Shown in pieces: positions 11,941-54,530 of a DNA stretch of 64,000 nucleotides. The translations under genes were made by a program, and so were the position numbers. Position 1 is the first letter of the stretch; each line of letters begins with the position of its first letter. The stretch is from positions 39,915,433 to 39,979,432 of the forward strand of contig NC_092385.1 of assembly GCF_030028105.1 (NCBI RefSeq). The letters are read 5' to 3'. This stretch comes from Mobula birostris (lineage: Eukaryota). Under the pieces are notes generated by a model that saw only the letters and a program-made list of their open reading frames with translations, did not search any database and was not told the DNA's origin.

Positions 11941-13354
11941 AAAACACAAAATACTCTGCAGATGCTGGGGTCAAAGCAACACTCACAACCCGCTGTTCCT
12001 TCGCTACATTGACGACTACATTGGTACTACTTCCTGCACCCATGCTGAGCTCGTGAATTTCATCGACTTTACTTCAAACTTCCACCCAGCCCTCAAATTC
12101 ACTTGCTCTATCTCGGACACTTCTCCCCCCTTTCTCGATCTCTTGGTCTCCATCTCTGAAGACAGATTTGTCCACTGATATCTTCTACAAGCCCACTGAT
12201 TCTCATAACTACCTCGACTATACCTCTTCCCACCCTGCCATATGCAAAACTGCCATTCCCTATTCCTAGTTCCTCCGTCTCCGCCGCATCTGCTCCCAGG
12301 ATGAGGCTTTCCGTTCCTGGACATCTCAAATGTCCTCTTTCTTTAAGGATCGTGGTTTCCCTTCTGCCGTCATCAATGATGCCCTCACCCGCATCTCCTC
12401 CATTTCCCGCACTTCAGCTCTCACCCCATCCTCCCGCCACCACAACAGGGACAGAGTTCCCCTTGTCCTCACCTACCACCCCACCAGCCTCCGGATCCAG
12501 CACATTATCCTCTGCATCTTCCGCCACCTTCGACAGGACCCCACCACTAAGTACATCTTTCCCTCTCTACCCCTCTCCGCCTTCCGCAGGGATCGGTTCC
12601 TCCCCACAGATCTCTCACCCGGCACTTATCCCTGTAAGCATAAGTGCTATACCTGTCCCTACACCTCCTCTCTTGCCACCATTCAGGGCCCCAAACAGTC
12701 CTTCCAGGTGAGGCAACACTTCACTTGTGAGTCTGTTGGGGTCATCTATTGCATCCGGTGCTCCCGGTGCGGCCTCCTCTACATCGGTGAAACCCGACGC
12801 AGATTGGGGGACCGCTTCGTCAAGCACCTCCGCTCCGTCCGCCACAACAGACAGGATCTCCCGGTTGCCACCCACTTCAACTCTGCTTCCCATTCGGATA
12901 TGTCCATACATGGCCTCCTCTACTGCCATGATGAGGCTAAACCCAGGTTGGAGGAGCAACACCTCATATACCGTCTAGGTAGTCTCCAGCCCCTTAGTAT
13001 GAACATAGAGTTCTCCAACTTCCAGGTAATTCCCTCCCCCTCCCTTCCTCTATCCCTATTTCACTCTGCCTCCTCCCCCAGCTGCCTATCACCTCCCTTA
13101 TGGTTCCATCTCCTTCTACTACCTATTGTGTTTTCCTCTATTCTTTCATCACCTTTCCTGCCTATGACTTCCCTGCTTCCCCTCCCTCACCCCTTTATCT
13201 TTCCCCTTACTGGTTTTTCACCTGGAACCTACCAGCCTTCTCCTTCCCACCCTTCCCCCACCTTCTTTATAGGGCCTCTGTCCCTTCCCTCTTCAGTCCT
13301 GATGAAGGGTTCCGGCCCGAAACGTTGACTGATCATTTCCACGGATGTGAGTAT
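11941..13354 (+). mobile_element. 5'-truncated Penelope-like element (Neptune-like): RT C-terminus, Cys linker, GIY-YIG endonuclease and pLTR; disrupted
   Basis: RYIDD at ~12002-12016, PFLD, YKPTD, linker CKHKCYTC, GVIYCIRCSRCGLLYIGETRRRLGDRF. Inverted pLTR piece at 11941-11995. 15-bp TSD TGCTTTACAG(T/C)ACCA at 11926-11940 and 13355-13369. Confidence 0.95.
13293..13332 (+). ncRNA. Minimal type-I hammerhead ribozyme in the Penelope pLTR
   Basis: TCAGTC-CTGATGA-A-GGG ttccgg CCC-GAAAC-GTT-GACTGA: 6-bp helix I, intact core, GUU cleavage triplet, palindromic AACGTT in place of helix III. Confidence 0.8.
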
Positions 13355-28679: not shown

Positions 28680-31480
28680 GAAATCAGAGAATAGGTAAAG
28701 CACGGTGTAACTATTCTATGCCAGCTCTATGTAAGAGCAATCTAGTTAGTTCCCATAGCCCCACAGGTTCTTTCGTTTCTGACAATTCCTTTAGATTGTT
28801 TCTAGCACAATTGAATCTGCTGCCACTATTACAGCTGGCAAGACCAAGCCCCAATCACCCATCCCATTAAAATAATTCCATCCTTATTTAACTTTCAGTT
28901 CTTTTGCCTGTTACCTTCATTGTCACCAGGTTTCATCTATCCCATCTATATTTACTGTGATTTTAAAACCTCCTTTCAAATCCTTGTGCAACATTTTGGG
29001 AAAACAATCACAATTTCTCCAGCCTAGGCATTGCTTGGGTCCCTCTTAGCTGGATCCATTTGAGTAGATCTTTTATGTACTCTCTTTTTGACCTTTCCTA
29101 AAGTGTGGCACCCAGAAATGGATGCTATACCCCACTTGTAGCCAGACCAGTATTTTATCAAGGCTCTGTGATTTCCTTACAAGCCTAGGATCATCTCCTG
29201 CATTTTAACTACTTTCCAAATCTGCCCTATCACTTTTGACAAATTCTCACTTTCCAAATTCTTTCCTCTTCCCATTTTTCCTAGGAAAACATAAAACTTC
29301 ACATATTTTAAGAATTAAAATTTCATCCAGTGCCCATCTGCCCTTCCCACCAATTTATACACACATATATTTTAGCATTCACCTCACAGTTCATTATGTG
29401 TCTGAGTTTTCTATGATCTGCAGACTTGGAAATTGCACCCTATACATCCATGTCGATGTTACTAATATATACAATGAAAAACAGTGGTACCAATCCCAGG
29501 AGAACTCCAGTGCATAATTCCTCCTGTCTGAAAAACATCCTTTCACCTTTACTGTTTCTTATTACAAAGTTAATTTTCTAGCAACGTAACAATGGATCCT
29601 CTTATTTCATGGGCTTCAATCTTGGGAAGTTCACATATACCGCATCAACCACACTTGTCTCATGATACCGTTGGTTACTTTATCAACATAATTCTATCAA
29701 GCTAGTTCAACACAATTTGCCTTTCATGTTAGACCATTAGCAAAGCATAATGGTCTAACTTACTGCTAATTCTGTCCCTAATTATTGTTTCTGGAACTTT
29801 TGCTCACCATGAAGATTTGACTGAATGGTCTGTAATTACTAGATGTATCTCCGATTTTTTTGGTGCAGATTTGCAGGTTTCTCACTTTCAGACATTAGCT
29901 CTAAATCCACAGCTGTTTGGAAGATTATAACGGATACACTTACAACTTTCTTGAGCAACCTTTGAAATATTTCATGTGGATCAGGTGATTTATCCACTTT
30001 AAGTGCAGTTAACATTATTATTACTTCCTCTTTCATTTTTTTTTGCCCATGCAGAATCTGTTATCCATTGTTGAGACTCCCTGGTAAAAACTGATGTATT
30101 GTTTCATTTAGTACCTCAGCCATAATTTCTGCCTCCAAAGTCTTTAGCTCTCTGAACAGTCCCACCTCTCTGCCGGCTAATGGATTTCTTTTTTTATTCT
30201 CTTTTACATATTCTGCTAATCTTTTCTTATGCTCTCTCTGTTTCTCTACCTTCACTTTTTAAATTTCTCTCTGAAATATCCATAATCAGCTTGGCCCTCA
30301 CTTATGTTAACAAAGTGCCATTTGCCATATGTTCTTTTTCTTCAAATTTTGGCCACCTATGCTATTATAGGTTAAAGTTTCCTGCCTGGGATATATCTAG
30401 ACCATGAAGGTCTCTAATAGGTCAATACCTAGCAGTCTTCCATTCCAAATCCTTGGCCCAGATCTGTTCTCATCTCATAACTGGTCCTTCTCCAAGAGAC
30501 TTTAAAAAAAAAATGTAATCCCTTTCACTGTTCCAATCCATAAGATATTATGATAGCCATTTCCTACATGTTTCCTCCCTGATAACTGTTCCACATGGCC
30601 TGGCATATTTCCCAGAACTTTGTCTAGCACTGGCAATTTCCTCATTGGGTCAGAAATGTAATGATCAAGAAAGGTCCCCTGAACAAACTTTAAAGCACTT
30701 TGCTCTCTATAGCTATTCCAATCCTTTATCTGAACTGTTGAATTTTCTCACTATCATTGTGTCTTTTGTATATTTGTAGTTTCCCTTAAAAATTTGCTCC
30801 TCAACATCTTTTCCAAAAGCTGCTAGCCTGTAGAACCGTCCGTGCAATGTATTCTCCCCTCTGCTATTTCCTAACTTTAGGCAGATACATTCTGTTTTTG
30901 ATCATTTCTTTCTTGAGGACTCTAATGTTCCTGTTAATTAATAACCGCCATATATCCTCCTTTCTTCCCTGCCCTATCTATTGAACATTTTGTATCTAGG
31001 AGCATGTAGGACCAATTCCTTCACTTTCTAGCCAATCTTCACATAGCTTATTCTACTATAGCTCACTTACTGCATTTATTATCAAGAACAGTAACATATA
31101 TCAAAGCTTCTTGCATCTTCTTTTTCTCTGATACTGACTAAACACTACCTATTTCTTGCTCTGGAGCCATTTATCTCTTCAAATCTTTCTTGGACTTTTC
31201 ATTTTGTTTTAAACACTATGTTCCGATGTCTATCCCGCTATCAAAATTAGCTTAACACCGCTCTCCAATGACTAGTTTTTATCCCCCTGAGAACATTGGT
31301 CTGAGTGTAAATGTATCTAGCCTACACATATTCCACCTTCCCGAGAAAAAGCTCCAATGCGTGCGGAAGCTCCCCACCCTGCACCATCTCAGTCCTTTTA
31401 TTAGCGCAGTACTTCAATTTCTATGCTCATTGGCACTGGCTCAGAGAGTAATCTAGATGTTACAAGCATCGAGATACTGC
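28680..31480 (-). mobile_element. Ancient, long, heavily decayed CR1
   Basis: Remnants LKVDKSPDPHEIFQRLLK, KRLAEYVKENKK and other ORF2 text in collinear order. Confidence 0.7.
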
Positions 31481-31680
31481 TTCCTATCCCTTTTTAACTT
31501 GTTAAAATCTACTATGCATCCTCTTCCCTCCTCTGCTCCAGATTGACAACTCAGTATAAATGGTTTTATTGTTTTGTACATGTATGTTTATGAACAAGAT
31601 AAACCACTGCTGATCAATACAGCAATTTTCCAGTTTACTTCCTTTCTTTGTCAAGCATGTTTCTCCATATTGTTACAAGC

Positions 31681-31806
31681 TCAGAGACATGATTGAAGCA
31701 AAGGCAGGACAGGCAACTCAATGTTCCATGGTACAGGTGCTTCTGGTACTTTAGGGGAGGGAGTACAAGAAGGAGGGGGCATTGCAAAGTTGCTGAAGAA
31801 AATCAC
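31681..31806 (-). CDS. Candidate terminal coding exon of an unannotated small gene (exon D)
   Basis: Acceptor cttctttcctgcacAG (AG at 31807-31808). Phase-0 reading VIFFSNFAMPPPSCTPSPKVPEAPVPWNIELPVLPLLQSCL*. Minus-strand AATAAA at 31565-31570. Confidence 0.35.
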   Translation of the reverse strand: MIFFSNFAMPPPSCTPSPKVPEAPVPWNIELPVLPLLQSCL

Positions 31807-32102
31807 CTGTGCAGGAAAGAAGTATGCCTTGAAAGGCTCTTCAAATGAGGTCATCTTTTTAGTAAAGATGGGGCATTCAGCTTGCCCGAGTTACACCACA
31901 AACCTCCAGCAGGCAGCTGGAGATAGACCAAATATGTAAGCAAGCCTCAGAGCGGTGGAAGAACAAAAGGATTCCAGTAATACAGAATTTTTAAACAAAT
32001 TGTTTGACAGTCTTTGTTAGCATGTAGGTTTTCACTGATGCAGTTGCACCTGCTGTGAATGCCTGTAAGAAAATGAATCACAGGGTAGTATATGGTGATA
32101 TA

Positions 32103-32584
32103 TGAGGGGTAATTGATAAGTTTGTGGCCTAACGGAGAAGGAGTCAATTTTAGAAAACCTAGCACATTTATTTTTCCTACATTTACACACTTAGTCCAGT
32201 GGTCGTGGAGCATACGGATCACTTCTTTGTAGAAGTCAGTGTCTTGGACCTCCAGAAGTGGTCACAGCAGGGGTGATTGATAAGTTCGTGGCCAAAGATA
32301 GAAGCAGATGAATTATTAACTTCAAACTTTCTGCATTATCACTCAAAGAGTTGACCTGCACGTGCATGTAACGAGAACTGTATAACTCATCTCCTTCCAC
32401 CCTAGGCCACACACTTATCAATCACCCCTGCTGTGGACCACTTCTACAAAGAAGGGATCCATATGCTCCACGACCGCTGGACTAAGTGTACATGTAGGAG
32501 GGGCTATGTTGAAGAATAAATGTGCTAGGTTTTCTAAAATTGACTCCTTCTACCCTAGGCCACGAACTTATCAATCACCCCTCA
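32103..32584. mobile_element. Mariner-type MITE with nested inverted repeats, inserted at TA in a Rex1-type tail
   Basis: TIR TGAGGGGT(A/G)ATTGATAAGTT at both ends, TA at 32101-32102 and 32585-32586. Internal TIR copies at ~32270 and ~32390-32428. Confidence 0.9.
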
Positions 32585-32965
32585 TATATGTACTTCGATA
32601 ATAAATTTACTTTGAACTTTTTCAATTTCCTCAGTACTAACCAGAAGAAGAAAAAAAAAATGCTGAAGGAACTCAGAGGGTCAGGTTGTATCTGCAAAGG
32701 GAAATGGACAGTCAATGTGTCAGGTGGCAACCTTTCACCTGCACTGGGTGGTCCAAAAGATTACAGCCTACAAAATCCCAGGCAATATAGCAAATTGGAT
32801 TCAAGGTTTTCGTTGTATGCTTTTGTAATTGGAAACCTCTGATTAGTAGTGTACCACAGTGTTGAGATCTTCACAGTTTTACATACACCGTAATAATTTC
32901 TATATGAATGTGGGAGGTATGATTTGCAGATGAATGAAAATTAGTGGTGATGTTGATATTGAGGA

Positions 32966-34158
32966 ATACATACAAAATGCTGTAGGAAATCAGCAAGTCA
33001 AGCAACATCTATAGAGGAGATTAAACAGTTGACATTTTGGCCAAGACTCATTTCCTTCCATCACTATCAACACTGCTCTCACATGCATTTCCCATGCATC
33101 TGCTCTTACCCCATACTCCCATCCTCAAAACAGAGATGGGTTCCTCTTGTCCTTATGTTCCACCCACGAGCCTCCGGACCCCGCACACCACTCTCTGTAA
33201 CTTCTGGCATCTCTAATGGGATCCTACTACTAAGCATGTCTTTCCCTCCCCCTCCCCTCTCTGTTTTCCATAGGGATCACTCTCTCTGTGACCTCCTTGT
33301 CCATTCATCCACCTCCACTTATCTCCCTCCTGATACTTATCCATGCATGTGGTACAAGTGTTACACCTGCCCCTGCACCATTTAGGGCCCCTGACAGCCC
33401 TTCCAGGTAAGGCAATACTTCACCTACGAATTTGGTGAAGGCACTTATTGTATATGGTGCTCCTAGTAGGGCCTCTTCTACAATGTGAGATCTGACGTAG
33501 ATCAAGGGACCACTTTGTCAAGCCCCTTTGCTCTGTCCAGCACAAAAGGGAAGATCTCATGGTCACCCATTTCAATTCGACTTCCCATTCCTATGTGCCT
33601 GCCCAGGCCCTTCACTACTGTCACGATGAGGCCACACTCAGGTTGAAGAAGCAACGCCTCAAATTCCGTCCAGGTACCTTCCAATCTAATGCATGAACAT
33701 CAACTTTTCCAACTTCCAGTAATCTCTCCCCTTTCCCTCTTTTTCTATTCCCCATTGTGGCTACTCCCTCTTCTCCTCACCTGTCTATTACTTCCATCTG
33801 GTTTCCCTCCTCCTTCCCTTTCTTCAATAATCCTCCATCTTTTCCTATCAGATTCCTTCTTCTTCAGATGTTTACCTCTTCCACTTATTCCCTCACAACT
33901 ATTTACTTCATTCTTCCTCTCCCACCCACCCACCTTCCCCCTCATCTGGTCTTATCTATCACCTGCCAGATTGAACTTCTTCCCCTCCGCTTCTTATTCA
34001 GATTTCTGCCCCTTTCCTTTCTAATCCTGATGTAGTCCATCAGTTTTTGGCCTGAAACATTAACTGTTTATTCCCCCTCGTAGATGCTTCTTGACTTGCT
34101 GAGTTCCTCAACAATTTGTTTGTGTTGCTTGAGATTTCCAGCATCTGCAGAAGTTTTT
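32966..34158 (+). mobile_element. Decayed Penelope-like element with inverted 5' pLTR, nested in an old CR1 (~32750-34890)
   Basis: VPLVLMFHP, TYPCMWYKCYTCP, GIY-YIG remnants, CT-rich tail. Inverted pLTR piece at ~32966-33050. Confidence 0.85.
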
Positions 34159-34889
34159 TGATAGCAAGGAAGATGGTCTTAGGTTACAAAATGACTTCCT
34201 CCCGCTGCTAAGTTGAGCAGTGCAACAGCAGATGGAGGCTCGTCCCGGAAAATATAGGGTAATGCACACTGGGTGACAGTAAGTGGAGGACATACACCAA
34301 GAATGACATAGCTCTGGGAGTATTGAGGGATGAAGGTACCTTGATGTACAAGTCTTAGATTGTTGAAGGTGGCAGTACAGGTATTAAGGTGATGTAGAAG
34401 ATATTTGGGTTACTTCATTACCTTGGACACAGAATACAAGAACATAGAATTCATGGTATAACTTCAGCAAATTTTGGTTAGGCTGAAATATTGCAGATCA
34501 CTTTGGTTGCCACTCTATAGGAAGGATGTGGTTTCAGGCAGAGAAGATTCATCAGGATGTGGCCTGATATGGAATATTTCAGTTAGGAGTCTGGATAGGG
34601 TAAGCTTGTTTATCTTGGGTGGGGGGGGGGTGGAGGCGCGCACAAAGTCGATATTAACAGACTTTCCTCAATGACAGATGTCCAAGACTAGAGGGCAAGG
34701 ATTTAAGATGAAGAGTACGGGAGCTAGAGGGGATCAAAGGTTTTTTTTCCCTCTTTACTACCTGGTTCCGATCTGGAATGTGCTACCTGAGATGATGGAA
34801 GCAGGTAGCTGCACATTTAAGTATCTGTGCGATGTCATTCTAACGTCATTGCACAGGTCTCAGGCCAATTGCAGGTAAATGGGATGAGC

Positions 34890-35290
34890 CAAGAGTACAG
34901 ATGCTGGAAATCTTGAGAGCAACACACCCAAAACACTGAGGGAACTGAGCAGAATCTACGGAAGGAAATGGAGCAGTCGTTTCGGCCCAAGACCCTCCAT
35001 CAGGACAGGAAAGGAAGAAGGCAGAAGCAAAAAATAGAAGGTAGGGGGAGAGGACGGAGCACAATATAGCAGATTGTAAGCAAATCCAGATGAGAGGGCG
35101 AGGTAGGCGGGTGGGTGAAGGGAAATGCACAACAAGGATGTGAGAAGCTGGATGATAGGTGGAAGGAGCAAAGGGCTGGATCTGAGAGGAGAGAATTATA
35201 AGGCGAGTTGGAGACACAAAAGGCTGCGAATGCCGTAATTCTGAGCAACAAGTTACTACGGGAACTTTGGAGGGATGAGTTGATGGTCGG
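34890..35290 (-). mobile_element. Penelope pLTR/3' fragment
   Basis: Reverse complement of the pLTR and an AG-rich tract. Degenerate hammerhead CTGATGG...GAAAC. Confidence 0.7.
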
Positions 35291-35827
35291 TATGGACACG
35301 GTTGGGCCGAAAGACCCGATCCTGAATCATATAACTGCATTAATAAACTCAGACTGTGTGCATGTTAACGCTCCAATCGCCACATATATTTCCCAGTCAT
35401 CATTCCGCTATCTCGCTGCTGGCGTTGTGACGATTTGGTGCCGATGGGCGGTCTGGAGTCAATTCATTACCGGATTGTCAGGAACCAGTCTCTATTCACG
35501 TAAACTGCACAGATCCTCAAAGGACACAGTCATCTCAGTGTTCTTTTAACAAGGGATTGTGCACAATGGGATGCGAGAGAGAGAGCGAAATAAAAACAAA
35601 AGACACTCAAACGATTTCTAGTGAAGCGGAGAAAACAGGCGATTTCAAAATTAAAGAGCTAAGGGTCAACGTTTCACGTGTGTGGCCTCTTGTTAGGGCG
35701 TGTAACACGAGATAATCGACCTAACTCGCTAAACGCTGCTTCCTCCATCTACAGATGTTAGCTGATCTGTTGTGTCTTCACCGTTATCGGCATTGTTTCT
35801 TTTTGCAGCACAGATTGCAATACCTAC

Positions 35828-35960
35828 CGTACCGTTCCACCTCGGAGCAGAGATCGGGGACTTTGACCGATCGCTGACTGGTTTGCGAGACCCAATGTGT
35901 GAACCAGGTGGTGTGAGCTGCCCCGACCGAGAACACTGCAGCGCTCCGACACCTGTCACC
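35828..35960 (-). CDS. Candidate internal coding exon (exon C) of an unannotated small gene
   Basis: Acceptor ttgcattttctccAG, donor ACG|GTAGGT, 133 nt. Open in the frame set by the ATG at 36461. Confidence 0.4.
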
Positions 35961-36450
35961 CTGGAGAAAATGCAACAATTAAACTTTGGAGAGCGCAATT
36001 TAGAAACTGATTTCAGCGCTTCTTTCGCTATTTTCTCTTACTCTGGGGTTTGGCAATTTCGGAAATAAACGGCAGGAGCTGCACATGTTTGAAATTAAGT
36101 TCCAACTGATTCTGCAGTTGTTTAACTCCCCAGTGTGCGATAACGATCATCAATCGACTTATTACTGCACTTACACGCATTCCGCCCAGGAAATGCCGTG
36201 GAATTGTATAAACAAACGCTGCCTCATTTCACAGGCAGCTCACACGCTGAACTCACCAGTTTTCTGCAAAATGACACCTCAGTACAAATTGTCGAGATGC
36301 GCACACTGACGCATTAAGTATAGTGCGGCATCAATTGCGTGTGAAATTGCGCACTGAACCTAGCGAAATCTGGTTCGCTTCACGTTCAGCATCATTTCCA
36401 GACCAGCCTTTAGGTCATGCAATTGAATCAGAACGCTTTCACTGCCTTAC

Positions 36451-36510
36451 CGTTTCTGCATGTAATGTACGCCTCGATGACGACGAACCGTGTCTTATTT
36501 AGATGACGGA
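36451..36510 (-). other. Candidate exon B containing the start codon (ATG at 36461-36459)
   Basis: Branch-point-like TACTGAC about 32 nt upstream of an AAG acceptor, donor ACG|GTAAGG, in-frame TAA upstream of the ATG. Confidence 0.4.
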
Positions 36511-37151
36511 CTTTGGTAAAATAGTACAATCAAAGACGACTGTCAGTATGTTCTTTCATGCATTCAAAAGGAATTGTCATTGATATTAATGCGGTAGATT
36601 TCTGCAAGCCCGCCCAAGGGGTTTACTCACGAATCTAGATTTCACGAAGAAGTCTAATTAAATAGAATTAAGAACCAGAAACTATCAGAATAAAAAAAAT
36701 TAACGTATATTGTTGAACAGAACCCATTCATTAGACAAGCTCAGCGATCTGCTTCCACATTTCATTCATTGCCGGATCAAAACCGAAATCGGCATCGGCA
36801 AGCAAAAACCAGCAGTGACTTAAATATGTGAAATATTTAAATTGGTCCACTTTGATCTTATTCCAAAGTGCAAGATACAGACTCTTGGAAAGCGGCAGGA
36901 CCACGTGAAAATGAAAGTGATGGTGGTGAATTTAGTCGGAGGTTTAGTTACATCAAAAGCGGATGAACTGAAACATGCTCTTACTTGGTGCTATCTAAAC
37001 AGTCTGGAGTACTCACCATTCCCATAACACGGCAGGACGAAGGAACTACTCATAAGAACCCTTACAACTGTTTGGCGTACACTTCTGCGTTCCTAACTTT
37101 CTTGACGCAGATTTAAGTAGTCAATGATGATCCTGAATGCAAAATTAGGAA

Positions 37152-37233
37152 AAACGTGGTTCCCAACCTGGGTTCCGCGGACCCCTCGGTTAATCGTAAG
37201 GATCCATGGAATAAAAAAGGTTGGGAATCCCTG
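37152..37233. mobile_element. ~82-bp hAT (Buster/Charlie-type) MITE
   Basis: GGTTCCCAACC...GGTTGGGAATCCCTG termini. Reverse-orientation sister of 49239-49321. Confidence 0.75.
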
Positions 37234-49449: not shown

Positions 49450-52400
49450 CTCCATAACTAAGATAAGGTTGGCTGCTTGTGACTAGTGGTGATCTGCAAA
49501 GGTCAGTGTTGGGTCTACTACTTTTCACATTATATGTTAATGATCTGGATGATAGAATTTGTGGCCAACTTTGCAGTGGCAGGCAATGTTGAGGAAGCAC
49601 AGAGTCTGCATGAGGACACGGACAGATTAGCAGCACAGGCACAGAAGTGGCAGATAGAATACAATGTAGGGAAGAGTATGGTCATGCACTTTGGTAGAAG
49701 AAAGAAAGGCATAGACCATATTCTAAATGGGAAGCAAAATCAGAAATAGGAGGTGCAAAGGGGCTTGGGAGTTACAGCCAGAGTTCCCTAAAGGGTAATT
49801 TGCAGGTTGAGTCAGTAGTACAGAAGGCAAGTCAAGGGAAGTGCCTTGCGAGAAAAGTGCGAGTCTTTGGCTCAGGAGTCTTCGGCGAGGAGGCTGAGAG
49901 TGGAGACTACACCACAGTTGGAGAGGGTGAGAAGTGGTGAGGAAATGACCGCCAGGCTGATTCAGTGTGCTGCTTGCATGATGTGGGAGGTCAGGGACAC
50001 TGATGGTGCTTCTGGCTCCTACACTTGTGGAAAATGTGTCCAGATTCAGCTTCTGAAGGACCGTGTTGCAGCACTAGAGAGGCAACTGGATGACGTTAGG
50101 TTCCTCTGGGAGAACGAGAGTTTTCTGGATAGGACCAACAGTGAGGTCGTTACACCGAGGATACCGGAAGACAGAAGGGGGACAACGATGAGCAAGGAAA
50201 GGATGCTTGAAGTACAGGAGACCCCGGGAGATGTGCGGCTCGTAAACAGGTTCTCCCTCTTGGAAGCTGTCGGGACAGAAGATGATGCCAGCCTGAGAGG
50301 CGGACAGGTCTGCGAGTCAACAATTGGCGGTGAAGCAAAGCCGAGGAGACAGATGTAAGGCAGAGCCGTGGTAGTAGGGGACTCCATAGTGAGAGGTACA
50401 GAAAGGGGTTTCTGTGGCAACAGGTGAGATTTAAGGATGGTGTGTTGCCTCCCTGGTGCCAGGATCCAGGATGTCATGGACCGATTGCAGGGAATCCTCA
50501 AGAGTGAAGGTGAACATTCAGAAGTGGTGGTGCATGTCGACACAAATGACGTGGGGAAGAAGAGGAAAGATATTCTACAGCGTGACTTCAGAGAACTTGG
50601 AAGAAGGCTGAAAAGCAGGACTTCCAGGGTTGTTATCTCCCGTTTGCTTCCAGTTCCCCGTGCTGGAGTGGTCAAGAACAGGGAGATAATGGATCTGAAT
50701 GTGTGGCTGAGGATCTGGTGCAGCAAGCAAGGATTTACATTCTTGGACCACTGGGGTATGTTTCGGGGTAAGGATGAATCGTACAAAAGGGACGGGTTGC
50801 ACCTTAACAAAGCGGGGCACCAGCATTCTGGCAGCCAGGTTTGCCTCTGCAACACGGGTGTGTTTAAACTAAGTAGTGGGGGAGGAGAGGATGAACTGGA
50901 AACATAAGTGGAGATAAAGGGAAAGTGAGAATAAGAAAAGTTAAGAAAGACAGCAGAATCGACAGAGCAGAAAGCTCAAGAAGGGATCGTACAGTACGGC
51001 CAAGTGAATTGGGAATTGATATGGGAGGTGAGGGGAGTAATGAATTAAAAATATTATATATGAATGCACGGACTATAAGAAATAAAGTGGATGAGCTTGA
51101 GGCACAGTTGGAAATTGGTAAGTATGATGTTGTGGGAATAACAGAGACATGGCTTCAAGTGGACAGGGCCTGGGAAATGAATATTCAAGGTATACGTCCT
51201 ATCGAAAGGACAGACTGATGGGCAGAGGGGGTGGGGTGGCTCTGTTGGTGAGGAATGACACTCAGTCCCTTGTGAGGGGAGACATACAATCAGTATGGAT
51301 AGAACTGAGAAATTCTAAGGGTAGAAAGACCCTAATGGGAGTTATCTACAGGCCCCCAATCAGTAGTCTGGATGTAGGGTGTAAGTTGAATCAAGAGTTA
51401 AAATTGGCATGTCGCAAAGGTAATGCTACAGTTGTTATGGGGGACTTCAACATGCGGGTAGACTGGAGGAATCGGGTCGGTACTGGACCCCAAGAAAGGG
51501 AGTTTGTGGAGTCCCTCCGAGATGGATTCTTAGAACAGCTTGTACTGGAGCCTACCAGGGAGAACGCAATTCTAGATTTAGTGTTGCGCAATGAACCAGA
51601 TTCGATCAGGGACCTCGAGGTAAAGGAGTCATTAGGAGGTAGTGACCATAATATGATAAGTTTTAATCTATAATTTGAGAGGGAGAAGGGAAACTTGGAA
51701 GTGTCAGTATTACAGTTGAACAAAGGGAACTATGGTGCTATGAGGGAGGAGCTGGCCAAAGTTCAATGGAACAATACCCTGGCAGGGATGACAGTGGAAC
51801 AACAATGGCAAGTGTTTCTGGGAATAATGCGGAAGGTGCAGTATCAGTTCATTCCAAAGAGGAAGAAAGATCCTAAGGGGAGTAAGGGGAGGCCGTGGCT
51901 GACAAGGGAAGTAATGGACAGTATAAAAATAAAAGAGAAGAAGTATAACATAGCAAAGACGAGTGGGAAGCTGGAGGATTGGGAAACCTTTAAAGATCAA
52001 CAGAAGGTAACTAACAAGGCAATAAGCGGAGAAAAAATGAGGTACGAAGGTAAACTAGCCAAGAATATAAAGGAGGATAGTAAAAGCTTCTTTAGGTATG
52101 TGAAAAGGAAAAAAATAGTTAAGACCAAAATTGGGCCCTTGAAGACAGAAGCCGGTGAATTTATTATGGGGAACAAGAAAATGGCAGGCGAGTTGAGCAG
52201 GTACTTTGGATCTGTCTTAACTAGGGAAGACACAAGCAATCTCCCAGACAGAATAGTGGCCAAAGGAGCTAGGGTAATGGATGAACTGAAGGAAATTTAT
52301 ATTAGGCAGGAAATGGTGTTGGATAGGCTGTTGGGTCTGAAGGCTGATAAGTCCCCAGGACCTGATGGTCTGCATCCCAGGGTACTTAAGGAGGTGGCCT

Positions 52401-54530
52401 TAGAAATCATGGACACATTGGTAATCATTTTCCAATGTTCTATAGATTCAGGATCAGTTCCTGTGGATTGGAGGGTGGCTAATGTTGTCCCTCTCTTCAA
52501 GAAGGAAAGAAGAGAGAAAACGGAATTATAGACCAGTTAGCCTGACGTCGGTGGTGGGAAAGATGCTGGAGTCAATTATAAAAGATGAAATTACGACACA
52601 TCTGGATAGCAGTAACAGGATCGGTCCAAGTCAGCATGGATTTATGAAGGGGAAATCGTGCTCGACTAATCTTCTGGAATTTTTTGAGGATGTAACTATG
52701 AAAATGGACAAGGGAGACAGTGGATGTAGTGTACCTGGACTTTCAGAAAGCCTTTGAAAAAGTCCCACATAGGAGATTAGTGGGCAAAATTAGGGCACAT
52801 GGTATTGGGGGCAGACTACTGACATGGATTGAAAATTGGCTGGCTGACAGAAAATAAAGAGTAGCGATTAACGGGTCCCTTTCAAAATGGCAGGCGGTGA
52901 CCAGTGGGGTACCGCAGGGTTCAGTGCTGGGACCGCAGCTGTTTACAATATATATTAATGATTTAGATGAGGGAATTAAAAGTAACATGAGCAAATTTGC
53001 CGATGACACAAAGCTGGGTGGCAGTGTGAAATGTGAGGAGGATGTTATGAGAATGCAGGGTGACTTGGACAGGTTGGGTGAGTGGGCAGATGCAGTTTAA
53101 TGTGGATAAATGTGAGGTTATCCACTTTGGTGGTAAGAACAGGGAGGCAGATTATTATCTAAATGGAGTCAAGTTAGGAAAAGGGGAAGCACAAGGAGAT
53201 GTAGGTGTTCTTGTACATCAGTCACTGAAAGTAAGCATGCAAGTACAGCAGGCAGTGAAGAAAGCTAATGGCATGCTGGCCTTCATAACAAGGGGAATTG
53301 AGTATAAGAGCAAAGAAGCCTTTCTGCAGCTGTACAGGGCCCTGGTGAGACCACACCTGGAGTACCGTGTGCAGTTTTGGTCTCCAAATTTGAGGAAGGA
53401 CATTCTTGCTATCGAGGGAGTGCCGCGTAGGTTCACAAGGTTAATTCCCGGGATGACGGGACTGTCATATGTCGAAAGATTGGAACGACTGGGCTTGTAT
53501 ACTCTGGAATTTAGAAGGCTGAGAGAGGATCTTATTGAAACATATAATATTATTAAGGGATTGGACACGTTGGAGGCAGGAAGAATGTTCCCACTGATGG
53601 GTGAGTCCAGAACCAGAGGCCACAGTTTAAGAATAAGGGGTAGGCCATTTAGAACGGAGTTGAGGAAAAACTTTTTCACCCAGAGAGTGGTGGATATATG
53701 GAATGCTCTGCCCCAGAAGGCTGAGGAGGCCAAGTCTCTGGATGCTTTCAAGAAAGAAATGGATAGAGCTCTTAAAGATGGCGGAATGAAAGGTTATGGG
53801 GTTAAGGCAGGAACTGGATACTGACTGTGGATGATCAGCCATGATCACAGTGAAAGGCGGTGCTGGCTCGAAGGGCCGAATGGCCTACTCCTGCACCTAC
53901 TGTCTATTGCCTATGTTAACCACCATTTCAAGAGGATTAGAATATAGAAACAAGAATGTAACATATTCCCTTGTTCTCAAGAAATACCACAAAGCTGATG
54001 AAATAAAGAAGGCTTCCACCACTAGAGTCAAGTCTAGTGGTCAGACCACATTGGGAATATTGTGATGAGTTTTGGGCCCTGTATCTACAAAAGGATCTGC
54101 TGGCATTAGAGACAGTCCAGAGGAGGTTCATGAGAATGATCCTGGTAATGAGAGGTTAACATGTGAGGAGTTCTTGGCCTGTATTTACTGGAGTTTAGAA
54201 GATTAAGGGAGGTTCTCATTGAAACCTATTGAATATTGAAAGGCCTAGATAGAGTGGAAGTGGAGAAGACATTTCCAATTGTGGGAGAGTCTAGGACCTG
54301 AGGACAGAGCCTTAGAATACAAAATGTCTCTTTAGAACAGAGATAAGGAGGAATTTCTTTAGTGTGTTGAAACTATGCGATTCATTGCCACAGACAGCAA
54401 TGGAAGTCAGGTAATTCGGTATATTTAAATCAGAGGTCGATACGTTCTGATTAGTAAGAGCAACAAGAGTTACGACAACAATGGGGTTGAGAGGCCAATG
54501 GTCCAATTCTGCTCTAATGTTTTATGGTCT
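49450..54530 (+). mobile_element. Older CR1 (pieces ~49450-49830 and ~53913-54530) hosting a full-length CR1
   Basis: KWQIEYNVGKSMVMHFGR lies left of the insert. The text resumes with ISRGLEYRNK...RPHWEYC on the right and ends in a (TTATGGT) tail. Confidence 0.8.
49831..53912 (+). mobile_element. Essentially full-length CR1 LINE (ORF1 zinc finger/leucine zipper and SGNH esterase; ORF2 APE and RT), inactivated
   Basis: ORF1 from ATG 49945: CAAC...CGKC, leucine heptads, VVGDSIVR, DGLHLN. ORF2: YMNAR, GITETW, MGDFN, GSDHN, SPGPDG, NYRPVSLTS, GVPQGSVLGP, KFADD. (CTATTG) tail. Several stops and frameshifts. Confidence 0.97.

What the first reader, a model, noticed from the sequence alone, without database searches (positions are those of the whole stretch)
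31565..37100. Unannotated four-exon minus-strand gene model encoding an 89-aa Pro/Ser-rich microprotein, ~6 kb downstream of SHQ1
Seen: exon A ends ATG|GTGAGT (37017). Exon B is 36451-36510 with a TACTGAC branch point and GTAAGG donor. Exon C is 35828-35960. Exon D starts at 31806, has TGA at 31681 and AATAAA at 31565. Splice phases are mutually compatible and give MQKRVTGVGALQCSRSGQLTPPGSHIGSRKPVSDRSKSPISAPRWNGTVIFFSNFAMPPPSCTPSPKVPEAPVPWNIELPVLPLLQSCL. There is an upstream in-frame stop and a 6-codon uORF (MGMSVI). All exons fall in non-repeat sequence and the 5' end is in the CpG island. The six-frame track cannot show this ORF. I do not recognise the protein and the ATG context is weak, so it may be a lncRNA or a young de novo gene.
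Basis: partly seen in the sequence, partly recalled or inferred. Interest (0 to 1): 0.7.

Follow-up and report, generated by a model that had tools for sequence, protein, structure and literature searches.

The report
Orphan promoter, likely non-coding ray transcript
The proposed 89-amino-acid microprotein is likely not real, because its last 41 residues are just the backwards reading of a decayed jumping-gene fragment and no related protein was found; what is real is a single-copy, CpG-rich stretch with one-directional splice and poly(A) signals that likely starts an ordinary non-coding RNA in a manta-type ray.

Summary
The splice motifs, the 89-codon frame, the upstream stop, the uORF and the AATAAA are in the sequence as stated. 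One key claim fails. Exon D, including its acceptor, its 41 codons and its stop, lies antisense in a decayed CR1-group LINE endonuclease fragment, and the same peptide reading occurs at 29 or more other places in the genome. Exon B's acceptor is weaker than all 11 SHQ1 acceptors. The start codon is the fourth AUG, in weak context, and is overlapped by an unreported 33-codon uORF. Frames of 89 codons or more arise in 10-12% of shuffles. No homologue was found, although the database holds the proteomes of four myliobatiform rays. The real feature is a 2-kb single-copy CpG island (o/e 0.92, the highest of 34 CpG-rich segments in 464 kb). It has 4 strong donor sites on the minus strand and none on plus, and 7 poly(A) hexamers on plus and none on minus, the layout of a minus-strand promoter. 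Best reading: an orphan-island promoter of a spliced non-coding RNA that may end in an exonised LINE. The transcript itself is not shown. Ordinary; low interest.

The parts
35200..37200 (.). Single-copy low-GC CpG island (orphan island), likely a minus-strand promoter
   Evidence: CpG o/e 0.92-0.99, GC 0.44-0.45; single copy; donors 4 minus to 0 plus, poly(A) hexamers 0 minus to 7 plus
37017..37132 (-). Candidate exon A: strong donor at 37017; acceptor at 37132 makes it a possible 116-nt internal exon rather than a first exon
   Evidence: donor 5.74, acceptor 4.41 bits
37158..37240 (.). High-copy ~85-bp inverted-repeat element (MITE-like, family not identified) just upstream of exon A
   Evidence: 2112 candidates, 40 scored, 82-92% identity
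36451..36510 (-). Candidate exon B: strong donor, poor AAG acceptor; may be an alternative first exon; carries the weak AUG (36461) of the 89-codon frame
36251..36257 (-).
   Evidence: 6.33 bits
35828..35960 (-). Candidate exon C, 133 nt, 61% GC, the best-defined exon; open in two frames
   Evidence: no protein relatives
31545..31806 (-). Candidate terminal exon D: acceptor, 41 codons and stop are antisense LINE sequence; AATAAA at 31570-31565 lies outside the remnant
31667..31988 (+). Decayed fragment of a CR1-group LINE, ORF2 endonuclease 5' part
   Evidence: 63-77% identity to other copies; Exo_endo_phos and RVT_1 in matching loci
42371..43840 (-). SHQ1 last exon with 3' UTR (upstream neighbour, same strand; poly(A) hexamer at 42373)

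Best explanation
The 2-kb CpG island at 35.2-37.2 kb is a real single-copy element that likely acts as an orphan promoter firing on the minus strand and likely makes a low-level, spliced, non-coding RNA; the 89-codon frame is likely incidental. Shown: the island, its strand asymmetry, the strength of exon C, and the LINE origin of exon D. Inferred mechanism: unmethylated CpG-rich DNA allows initiation. U1-binding donor sites (37017, 36451, 36257, 35828) and the lack of sense poly(A) signals let polymerase run in the minus direction, while plus-strand transcripts meet seven poly(A) hexamers and stop early. One of several upstream donors (alternative first exons, or exon A) splices to exon C. 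Exon C then splices to a downstream acceptor; one candidate is the AG at 31807 in the antisense LINE fragment, with the nearby AATAAA, giving a transposon-derived last exon. Ribosomes would meet three earlier AUGs. Their stops lie 128-181 nt before the last junction, so an A-B-C-D RNA would be expected to be degraded by nonsense-mediated decay (50-nt rule, recalled) rather than yield the 89-aa peptide. I put the exact A-B-C-D isoform as the main product at about 0.15.
For: Island: highest CpG o/e of 34 CpG-rich segments in 464 kb and the longest of the non-repeat ones; same class as the RYBP promoter island (o/e 0.79, GC 0.49). Donors of 4 bits or more: 4 minus, 0 plus; 3% of 2000 shuffles reach 4. 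One strong exon with three strong upstream donors: 3 of 2000 shuffles, 1 of 888 genomic tiles (thresholds tuned to the model). T-rich minus strand (+0.064) as in SHQ1 (+0.049) and the RYBP intron (+0.061). Five of six model splice sites fall in or above the range of 11 SHQ1 introns. Non-coding: exon D peptide matches 29 other places at 44-60% identity, 20 of them with stops (150 of 5685 candidates scored). 3 of the 5 loci examined carry an endonuclease domain on the opposite strand, one followed by RVT_1. ORF of 89 or more in 9.5-12% of 3000 shuffles. No relatives though Mobula, Hemitrygon and Hypanus proteins are held. Background from papers (passages read): intergenic non-methylated islands mark 45-64% of lncRNA starts and are GC-poor in fish (PMC3583005); U1-site/PAS asymmetry sets promoter direction (PMC4085477); transposons contribute mostly to last exons of lncRNAs (PMC3636048).
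Against: No transcript evidence was obtained here. Splice scores rest on recalled generic frequency tables, and the chain thresholds were set after seeing the model. In PMC3583005 only 9-15% of intergenic islands matched known non-coding starts and 8-14% unannotated transcripts, against 17-40% putative enhancers, so the prior for an enhancer is not small. No TATA, YY1, NRF1 or BANP-type motif was found (recalled motifs). T-skew fades across the gene desert towards RYBP (+0.02). Conservation in other rays could not be tested.
Confidence: 0.55

Rival explanations
1. The island is a distal regulatory element (enhancer or Polycomb-type orphan island) for RYBP or SHQ1 with no stable spliced RNA; the splice sites are pseudo-exons.
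For: It lies in a ~172-kb gene desert before RYBP with other non-repeat CpG-rich segments. No Pfam-recognisable cellular gene among 111 of 191 listed ORFs scanned there: only the RYBP zinc finger and three transposon domains. Putative enhancers are the commonest class of intergenic islands in zebrafish (PMC3583005). Pseudo-exons of similar strength are common: 89 of 888 tiles.
Against: Two partly independent strand asymmetries (donors 4:0, poly(A) hexamers 0:7) point the same way. None of nine other islands tested has more than 2 strong donors on a strand.
Confidence: 0.26
2. The exons are used by another gene's transcript: SHQ1 read-through or alternative splicing into the acceptor at 37132, or a distal 5' leader that splices on towards RYBP.
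For: Same strand as both genes. Exon A has a usable acceptor at 37132, 5.2 kb past the SHQ1 poly(A) signal. Minus-strand poly(A) hexamers are scarce between 34.1 and 40.1 kb.
Against: SHQ1 contigs in 4 of 4 runs splice into the normal last exon at 43840. RYBP has its own promoter island ~172 kb away. A CpG island here would not be needed for read-through. The frame entered at 37132 in SHQ1's phase closes after about 12 codons (my reading).
Confidence: 0.12
3. One reading: A-B-C-D is made and translated into a functional 89-aa Pro/Ser-rich microprotein (young de novo gene).
For: The frame is open across three exons. The acceptor AG of exon D is absent from 10 of 11 aligned LINE copies, so it may have arisen here (rough alignments at 63-77% identity). 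Exon C is single-copy.
Against: Acceptor B scores -2.3 against 2.2-6.6 for 11 true acceptors. Fourth AUG, T at -3 and C at +4, overlapped by a 33-codon uORF. ORF length is within chance. The Pro-rich half is the default antisense reading of the LINE. No homologues.
Confidence: 0.05

Closest known systems
Intergenic (orphan) non-methylated islands of cold-blooded vertebrates that mark lncRNA starts or enhancers (PMC3583005, passages read)
   Same: High CpG o/e with near-background GC; more than 5 kb from a coding start; single copy
   Different: Methylation state and chromatin marks not measured; no transcript shown
Vertebrate lncRNAs with transposon-derived last exons (PMC3636048, passages read)
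   Same: Short upstream exons in unique DNA; last exon captured through a cryptic acceptor in a transposon; chance-length ORF
   Different: Here the donor element is a CR1-group LINE endonuclease fragment read antisense in a ray; the paper covers human, mouse and zebrafish
CR1-group LINEs of elasmobranchs (PMC13343379, passages read: 22-34% of shark and ray genomes; APE + RT ORF2; esterase ORF1 in CR1/L2)
   Same: Exon D aligns to copies with Exo_endo_phos and RVT_1 domains; an esterase-type (OSK/SGNH) frame lies upstream in L064 (weak, E 0.005)
   Different: Only a ~320-bp decayed fragment; clade within the group not determined
De novo microproteins from lncRNA small ORFs (recalled class)
   Same: Short, Pro/Ser-rich, no homologues
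   Different: No translation or selection evidence; unfavourable start context

Membership tests
Protein-coding gene (microprotein) | ORF longer than chance | tested here: not met
   89 codons or more in 9.5% (all exons shuffled) and 12.3% (exon D kept) of 3000 shuffles
Protein-coding gene (microprotein) | Homologous protein in related species | tested here: not met
   exon C, model frame; second frame; one hit to a repetitive 1109-aa protein, judged spurious; control shows ray proteomes held. Annotation pipelines often skip small ORFs, so this is moderate evidence
Protein-coding gene (microprotein) | Accessible start codon | tested here: not met
   fourth AUG, weak context, overlapped by a 33-codon uORF
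Protein-coding gene (microprotein) | Purifying selection on the frame; ribosome footprints or peptides | not testable with these tools
   no other ray genome is held (no relatives)
Spliced lncRNA | Transcript with the junctions exists | tested here: inconclusive
   see Tried and rejected
Spliced lncRNA | Splice sites within the range of true sites | tested here: met
   5 of 6 sites; acceptor B is not
CpG-island (non-methylated island) promoter | CpG o/e far above background in non-repeat DNA | tested here: met
   0.92 against 0.32; GC 0.45 is below the classical 50% cut-off (recalled), as in fish islands
CpG-island (non-methylated island) promoter | U1-site / poly(A)-signal strand asymmetry | tested here: met
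CpG-island (non-methylated island) promoter | Unmethylated DNA, H3K4me3, capped 5' ends | not testable with these tools
   needs bisulfite, ChIP or CAGE data
CR1-group LINE remnant (exon D) | Homology to dispersed copies carrying APE endonuclease and RT | tested here: met
   (3 of 5 loci with the endonuclease domain, 1 with RVT_1)
CR1-group LINE remnant (exon D) | RT-phylogeny placement in CR1 versus L2/Zenon | not tested
   group name rests on domain order, a weak esterase hit and PMC13343379
snoRNA host gene / structured ncRNA | Rfam family or stable fold in an intron | tested here: not met
   0 gathering-level hits in 64 kb; one weak E 0.078 hit outside the model; 36257-36450 folds at z -1.0; no tRNA

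The most novel reading that the evidence does not exclude
A young, ray-specific de novo microprotein gene born on a pre-existing orphan CpG-island promoter, whose C-terminal 46% is the antisense frame of a CR1-group LINE endonuclease recruited through a newly arisen splice acceptor.
Probability: 0.05. Interest if true: 0.55.

Novelty: new member of a known kind. Interest (0 to 1): 0.14.

Why it matters
As it most likely stands, this is one more lineage-level orphan promoter with a probable lncRNA, useful only for annotating the SHQ1-RYBP gene desert in rays. It also shows how an antisense LINE endonuclease fragment supplies a ready-made acceptor and an often open, Pro-rich frame (9 of 29 other copies have no stop), which can fool ab initio microprotein calls in shark and ray genomes. 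If translation and selection were shown, it would be a datable case of de novo gene birth from antisense LINE sequence in a slowly evolving lineage.

Tried and rejected
RNA evidence (no weight either way); no RNA holder listed for 31400-37300; the 5.9-kb query diluted the ~0.5 kb of exons, and the one search is spent; four runs (assembled contigs, RNA status guessed) cover the SHQ1 last exon as spliced contigs. Bins holding exons B and C showed trace depth (0.18-0.87) in X2 and X3, and the exon D bin 0.41 in X1. None of the model's junctions was among the 15 joints shown (199 not shown); on 35380-37140, 0 records were laid in X2, X3, X5 and X6, so the traces did not reproduce. They may be short chance pieces of repeat contigs; the tool warns that a zero can be false. 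Tissues are unknown.

Other dead ends. snoRNA host gene: rejected. RYBP proximal promoter: rejected, RYBP has its own island ~172 kb away. Hidden coding gene between the island and RYBP: none by Pfam in 111 of 191 ORFs of 72 aa or more; short exons would be missed. Island as a young transposon: single copy and no Pfam hit at E below 0.05 in ten island-region ORFs. An A-to-C skip gives a 65-codon frame from a better AUG: 28-31% of shuffles reach 65 and it has no credible relative. A positionally matching human island was only a recollection; no paper held the recalled coordinates, so it is not used. Literature searches on the SHQ1-RYBP interval gave nothing relevant (listings only). Exact 25-mer of exon C in metagenome contigs: 0. 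The bacterial promoter scan is not applicable. Earlier scan notes: nothing near or in relatives; the eight shown concern other loci.
Full report
Setting. The window is G000:C20:39915433-39979432. Its minus-strand frame at 43839-43153 is 100% identical to the end of a Mobula birostris SHQ1 record on a contig of the same length. RYBP-type domains lie on the same strand at C20:39777900 and 39654341; the name RYBP rather than YAF2 rests on recalled synteny with SHQ1. The finding therefore sits 5 kb past the SHQ1 poly(A) signal (42373), at the edge of a ~172-kb desert before the RYBP promoter island.

Observation. All quoted motifs and the 89-codon frame are present. I scored sites with recalled generic vertebrate frequency tables and calibrated them on 11 SHQ1 introns rebuilt from the database protein (donors -2.1 to 8.2 bits, acceptors 2.2 to 6.6). 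Donors A, B and C score 5.7, 5.3 and 4.1; acceptors C and D score 5.9 and 7.8; acceptor B scores -2.3, no better than the top 22% of all AG dinucleotides. The island also holds a stronger unused donor at 36257, and exon A has an acceptor at 37132. The exon chain is therefore one choice among several. With thresholds at the model's weakest sites, 4 of 146 six-kb tiles yield a four-exon chain, and 2 of 146 one with 89 codons or more. That is about one chance in four per window; the two tiles were not checked for real genes.

Exon D is a transposon. A DNA search with 31400-31870 gave seven other places. The remnant spans 31667-31988, at 63-77% identity to twelve copies, and covers the acceptor, all 41 codons and the stop. 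A protein search with the exon D frame gave 29 other places at 44-60% identity, 20 with internal stops; only 150 of 5685 candidates were scored. On the opposite strand, 3 of 5 such loci carry Exo_endo_phos domains (best E 2e-15), one followed by RVT_1; two gave nothing (12 of 22 listed ORFs scanned). The frames of L007 and L010 on the model's strand read the same 12 residues that lie near the end of the proposed protein. So 41 of 89 residues, and much of the proline richness, are the default antisense reading of a LINE endonuclease. CR1-group elements make up 22-34% of elasmobranch genomes (PMC13343379, passages). The acceptor AG is present in 1 of 11 aligned copies, with TG in 5 (rough alignments), so it probably arose locally. 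That fits exonisation and chance equally.

The frame. In the model RNA the start is the fourth AUG, with T at -3 and C at +4. It follows a 33-codon uORF that overlaps it out of frame and the 6-codon uORF in better context. Their stops lie 128 and 181 nt before the last junction, which by the recalled 50-nt rule marks the RNA for decay. Exon C is 61% GC and open in two frames. Exon-wise dinucleotide shuffles reach 89 codons in 9.5%, or 12.3% when exon D is kept (3000 each). No protein of 56-179 aa or 78-2000 aa matches exon C in the model frame. The second frame gave one hit among 1.8 billion representatives, to a repetitive acidic 1109-aa protein, which I judge spurious. The Atlas gave only low-score bacterial hypotheticals, and the genome holds no paralogue. 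The control search returned SHQ1 from two Mobula species, Hemitrygon, Hypanus and other elasmobranchs, so their annotated proteomes are held, though pipelines often omit small ORFs.

What is real. Across 464 kb the segment 35001-37200 has the highest CpG o/e of 34 CpG-rich segments (0.92; background 0.32) and is the longest non-repeat one. Its composition resembles the RYBP promoter island. The repeat mask there was only a local self-BLAST, but three genome-wide searches found it single-copy. Within it, donors of 4 bits or more number 4 on minus and 0 on plus (3% of 2000 shuffles reach 4). A strong exon with three strong upstream donors occurs in 3 of 2000 shuffles and 1 of 888 tiles; with two upstream donors, in 11 of 2000 and 14 of 888. 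These thresholds were tuned to the model. Independently, AATAAA/ATTAAA number 7 on plus and 0 on minus (p=0.016), a pattern seen in 3 of 888 tiles, two of them this island. This is the U1/poly(A) asymmetry described for directional promoters (PMC4085477, one passage). GC-poor, CpG-rich islands are the norm in fish; intergenic ones mark lncRNA starts, unannotated transcripts or, more often in zebrafish, putative enhancers (PMC3583005, passages). Transposons contribute mostly to last exons of lncRNAs through cryptic acceptors (PMC3636048, passages).

Mechanism. Shown: a single-copy island, a minus-strand signal bias, a well-defined exon C and a LINE-derived exon D. Inferred: initiation in the island, splicing from one of several donors into exon C, and termination in exon D or elsewhere, giving a low-abundance non-coding RNA that would be decay-prone if exon A is included (0.55). 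Rivals are an enhancer-like island without a stable RNA (0.26), use by SHQ1 read-through or a distal RYBP leader (0.12), and a functional microprotein (0.05). The RNA look-ups did not settle whether the transcript exists (see Tried and rejected), and no other ray genome was available for conservation.

Verdict. The microprotein is unlikely, and the locus is a probable new member of a common kind. Searches for papers on this interval found nothing relevant (listings only, Creative Commons and bioRxiv holdings; supplements not read). Whether NCBI annotates a lncRNA here could not be checked. Interest 0.14.

Noticed in passing
L041, G000:C20:39998510-39998713 (minus): The 691-aa SHQ1 isoform X1 record (P0001) has a 66-codon in-frame exon absent from the 625-aa ray proteins. 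It matches three other places in the 464-kb region at 55-85% and lies in a repeat-covered CpG-rich segment, so it looks like a transposon-derived exon with canonical sites (donor 2.0, acceptor 4.15 bits).
   Followed up: partly
G000:C20:40050000-40086233 (L047-L050): The T-rich minus-strand skew of SHQ1 continues ~35 kb upstream of its first coding exon to a CpG island at 40084933-40086233 and flips near the island at 40101033. SHQ1 may start at that island with a non-coding first exon, head to head with a plus-strand gene (GXYLT2 by recalled synteny, untested).
   Followed up: no
L028, G000:C20:39802233-39803933: A second non-repeat CpG-rich segment (1.7 kb, o/e 0.81) ~24 kb upstream of the RYBP promoter, with no strong donor on either strand; candidate RYBP regulatory element. 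Smaller ones at 39830433, 39860633, 39901333.
   Followed up: no
L026:2445-3077 (minus): The ray RYBP first coding exon appears to start at the second Met of the recalled mammalian N-terminus; its promoter has CCAAT and CACGTG boxes behind a ~0.9-kb polypyrimidine tract.
   Followed up: no
window 49819-53821 (+): Near-complete CR1-group LINE with GDSL/SGNH esterase ORF1 (E 6e-12) and endonuclease (E 7e-10), broken into several frames, inside the SHQ1 last intron.
   Followed up: partly
window 12270-13325 (+) and 33086-33816: Penelope-like element with a weak GIY-YIG hit (E 4e-4) and a 69%-identical decayed copy in the proposed C-D intron.
   Followed up: no
window 32098-32589: ~490-bp element with long terminal inverted repeats (72% self-complementary), highly represented in all four contig sets; MITE-like.
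   Followed up: no
L038:6293-8542 (+); L039:5599-6153 (-): Transposon remnants in the gene desert: Tc5/pogo HTH (E 2.5e-13), hAT dimerisation domain, zf-RVT.
   Followed up: no
window 42540-43763: Runs X2-X4 differ from the window at ~1% of SHQ1 last-exon positions, while X1 is identical; a close relative is among the runs.
   Followed up: no
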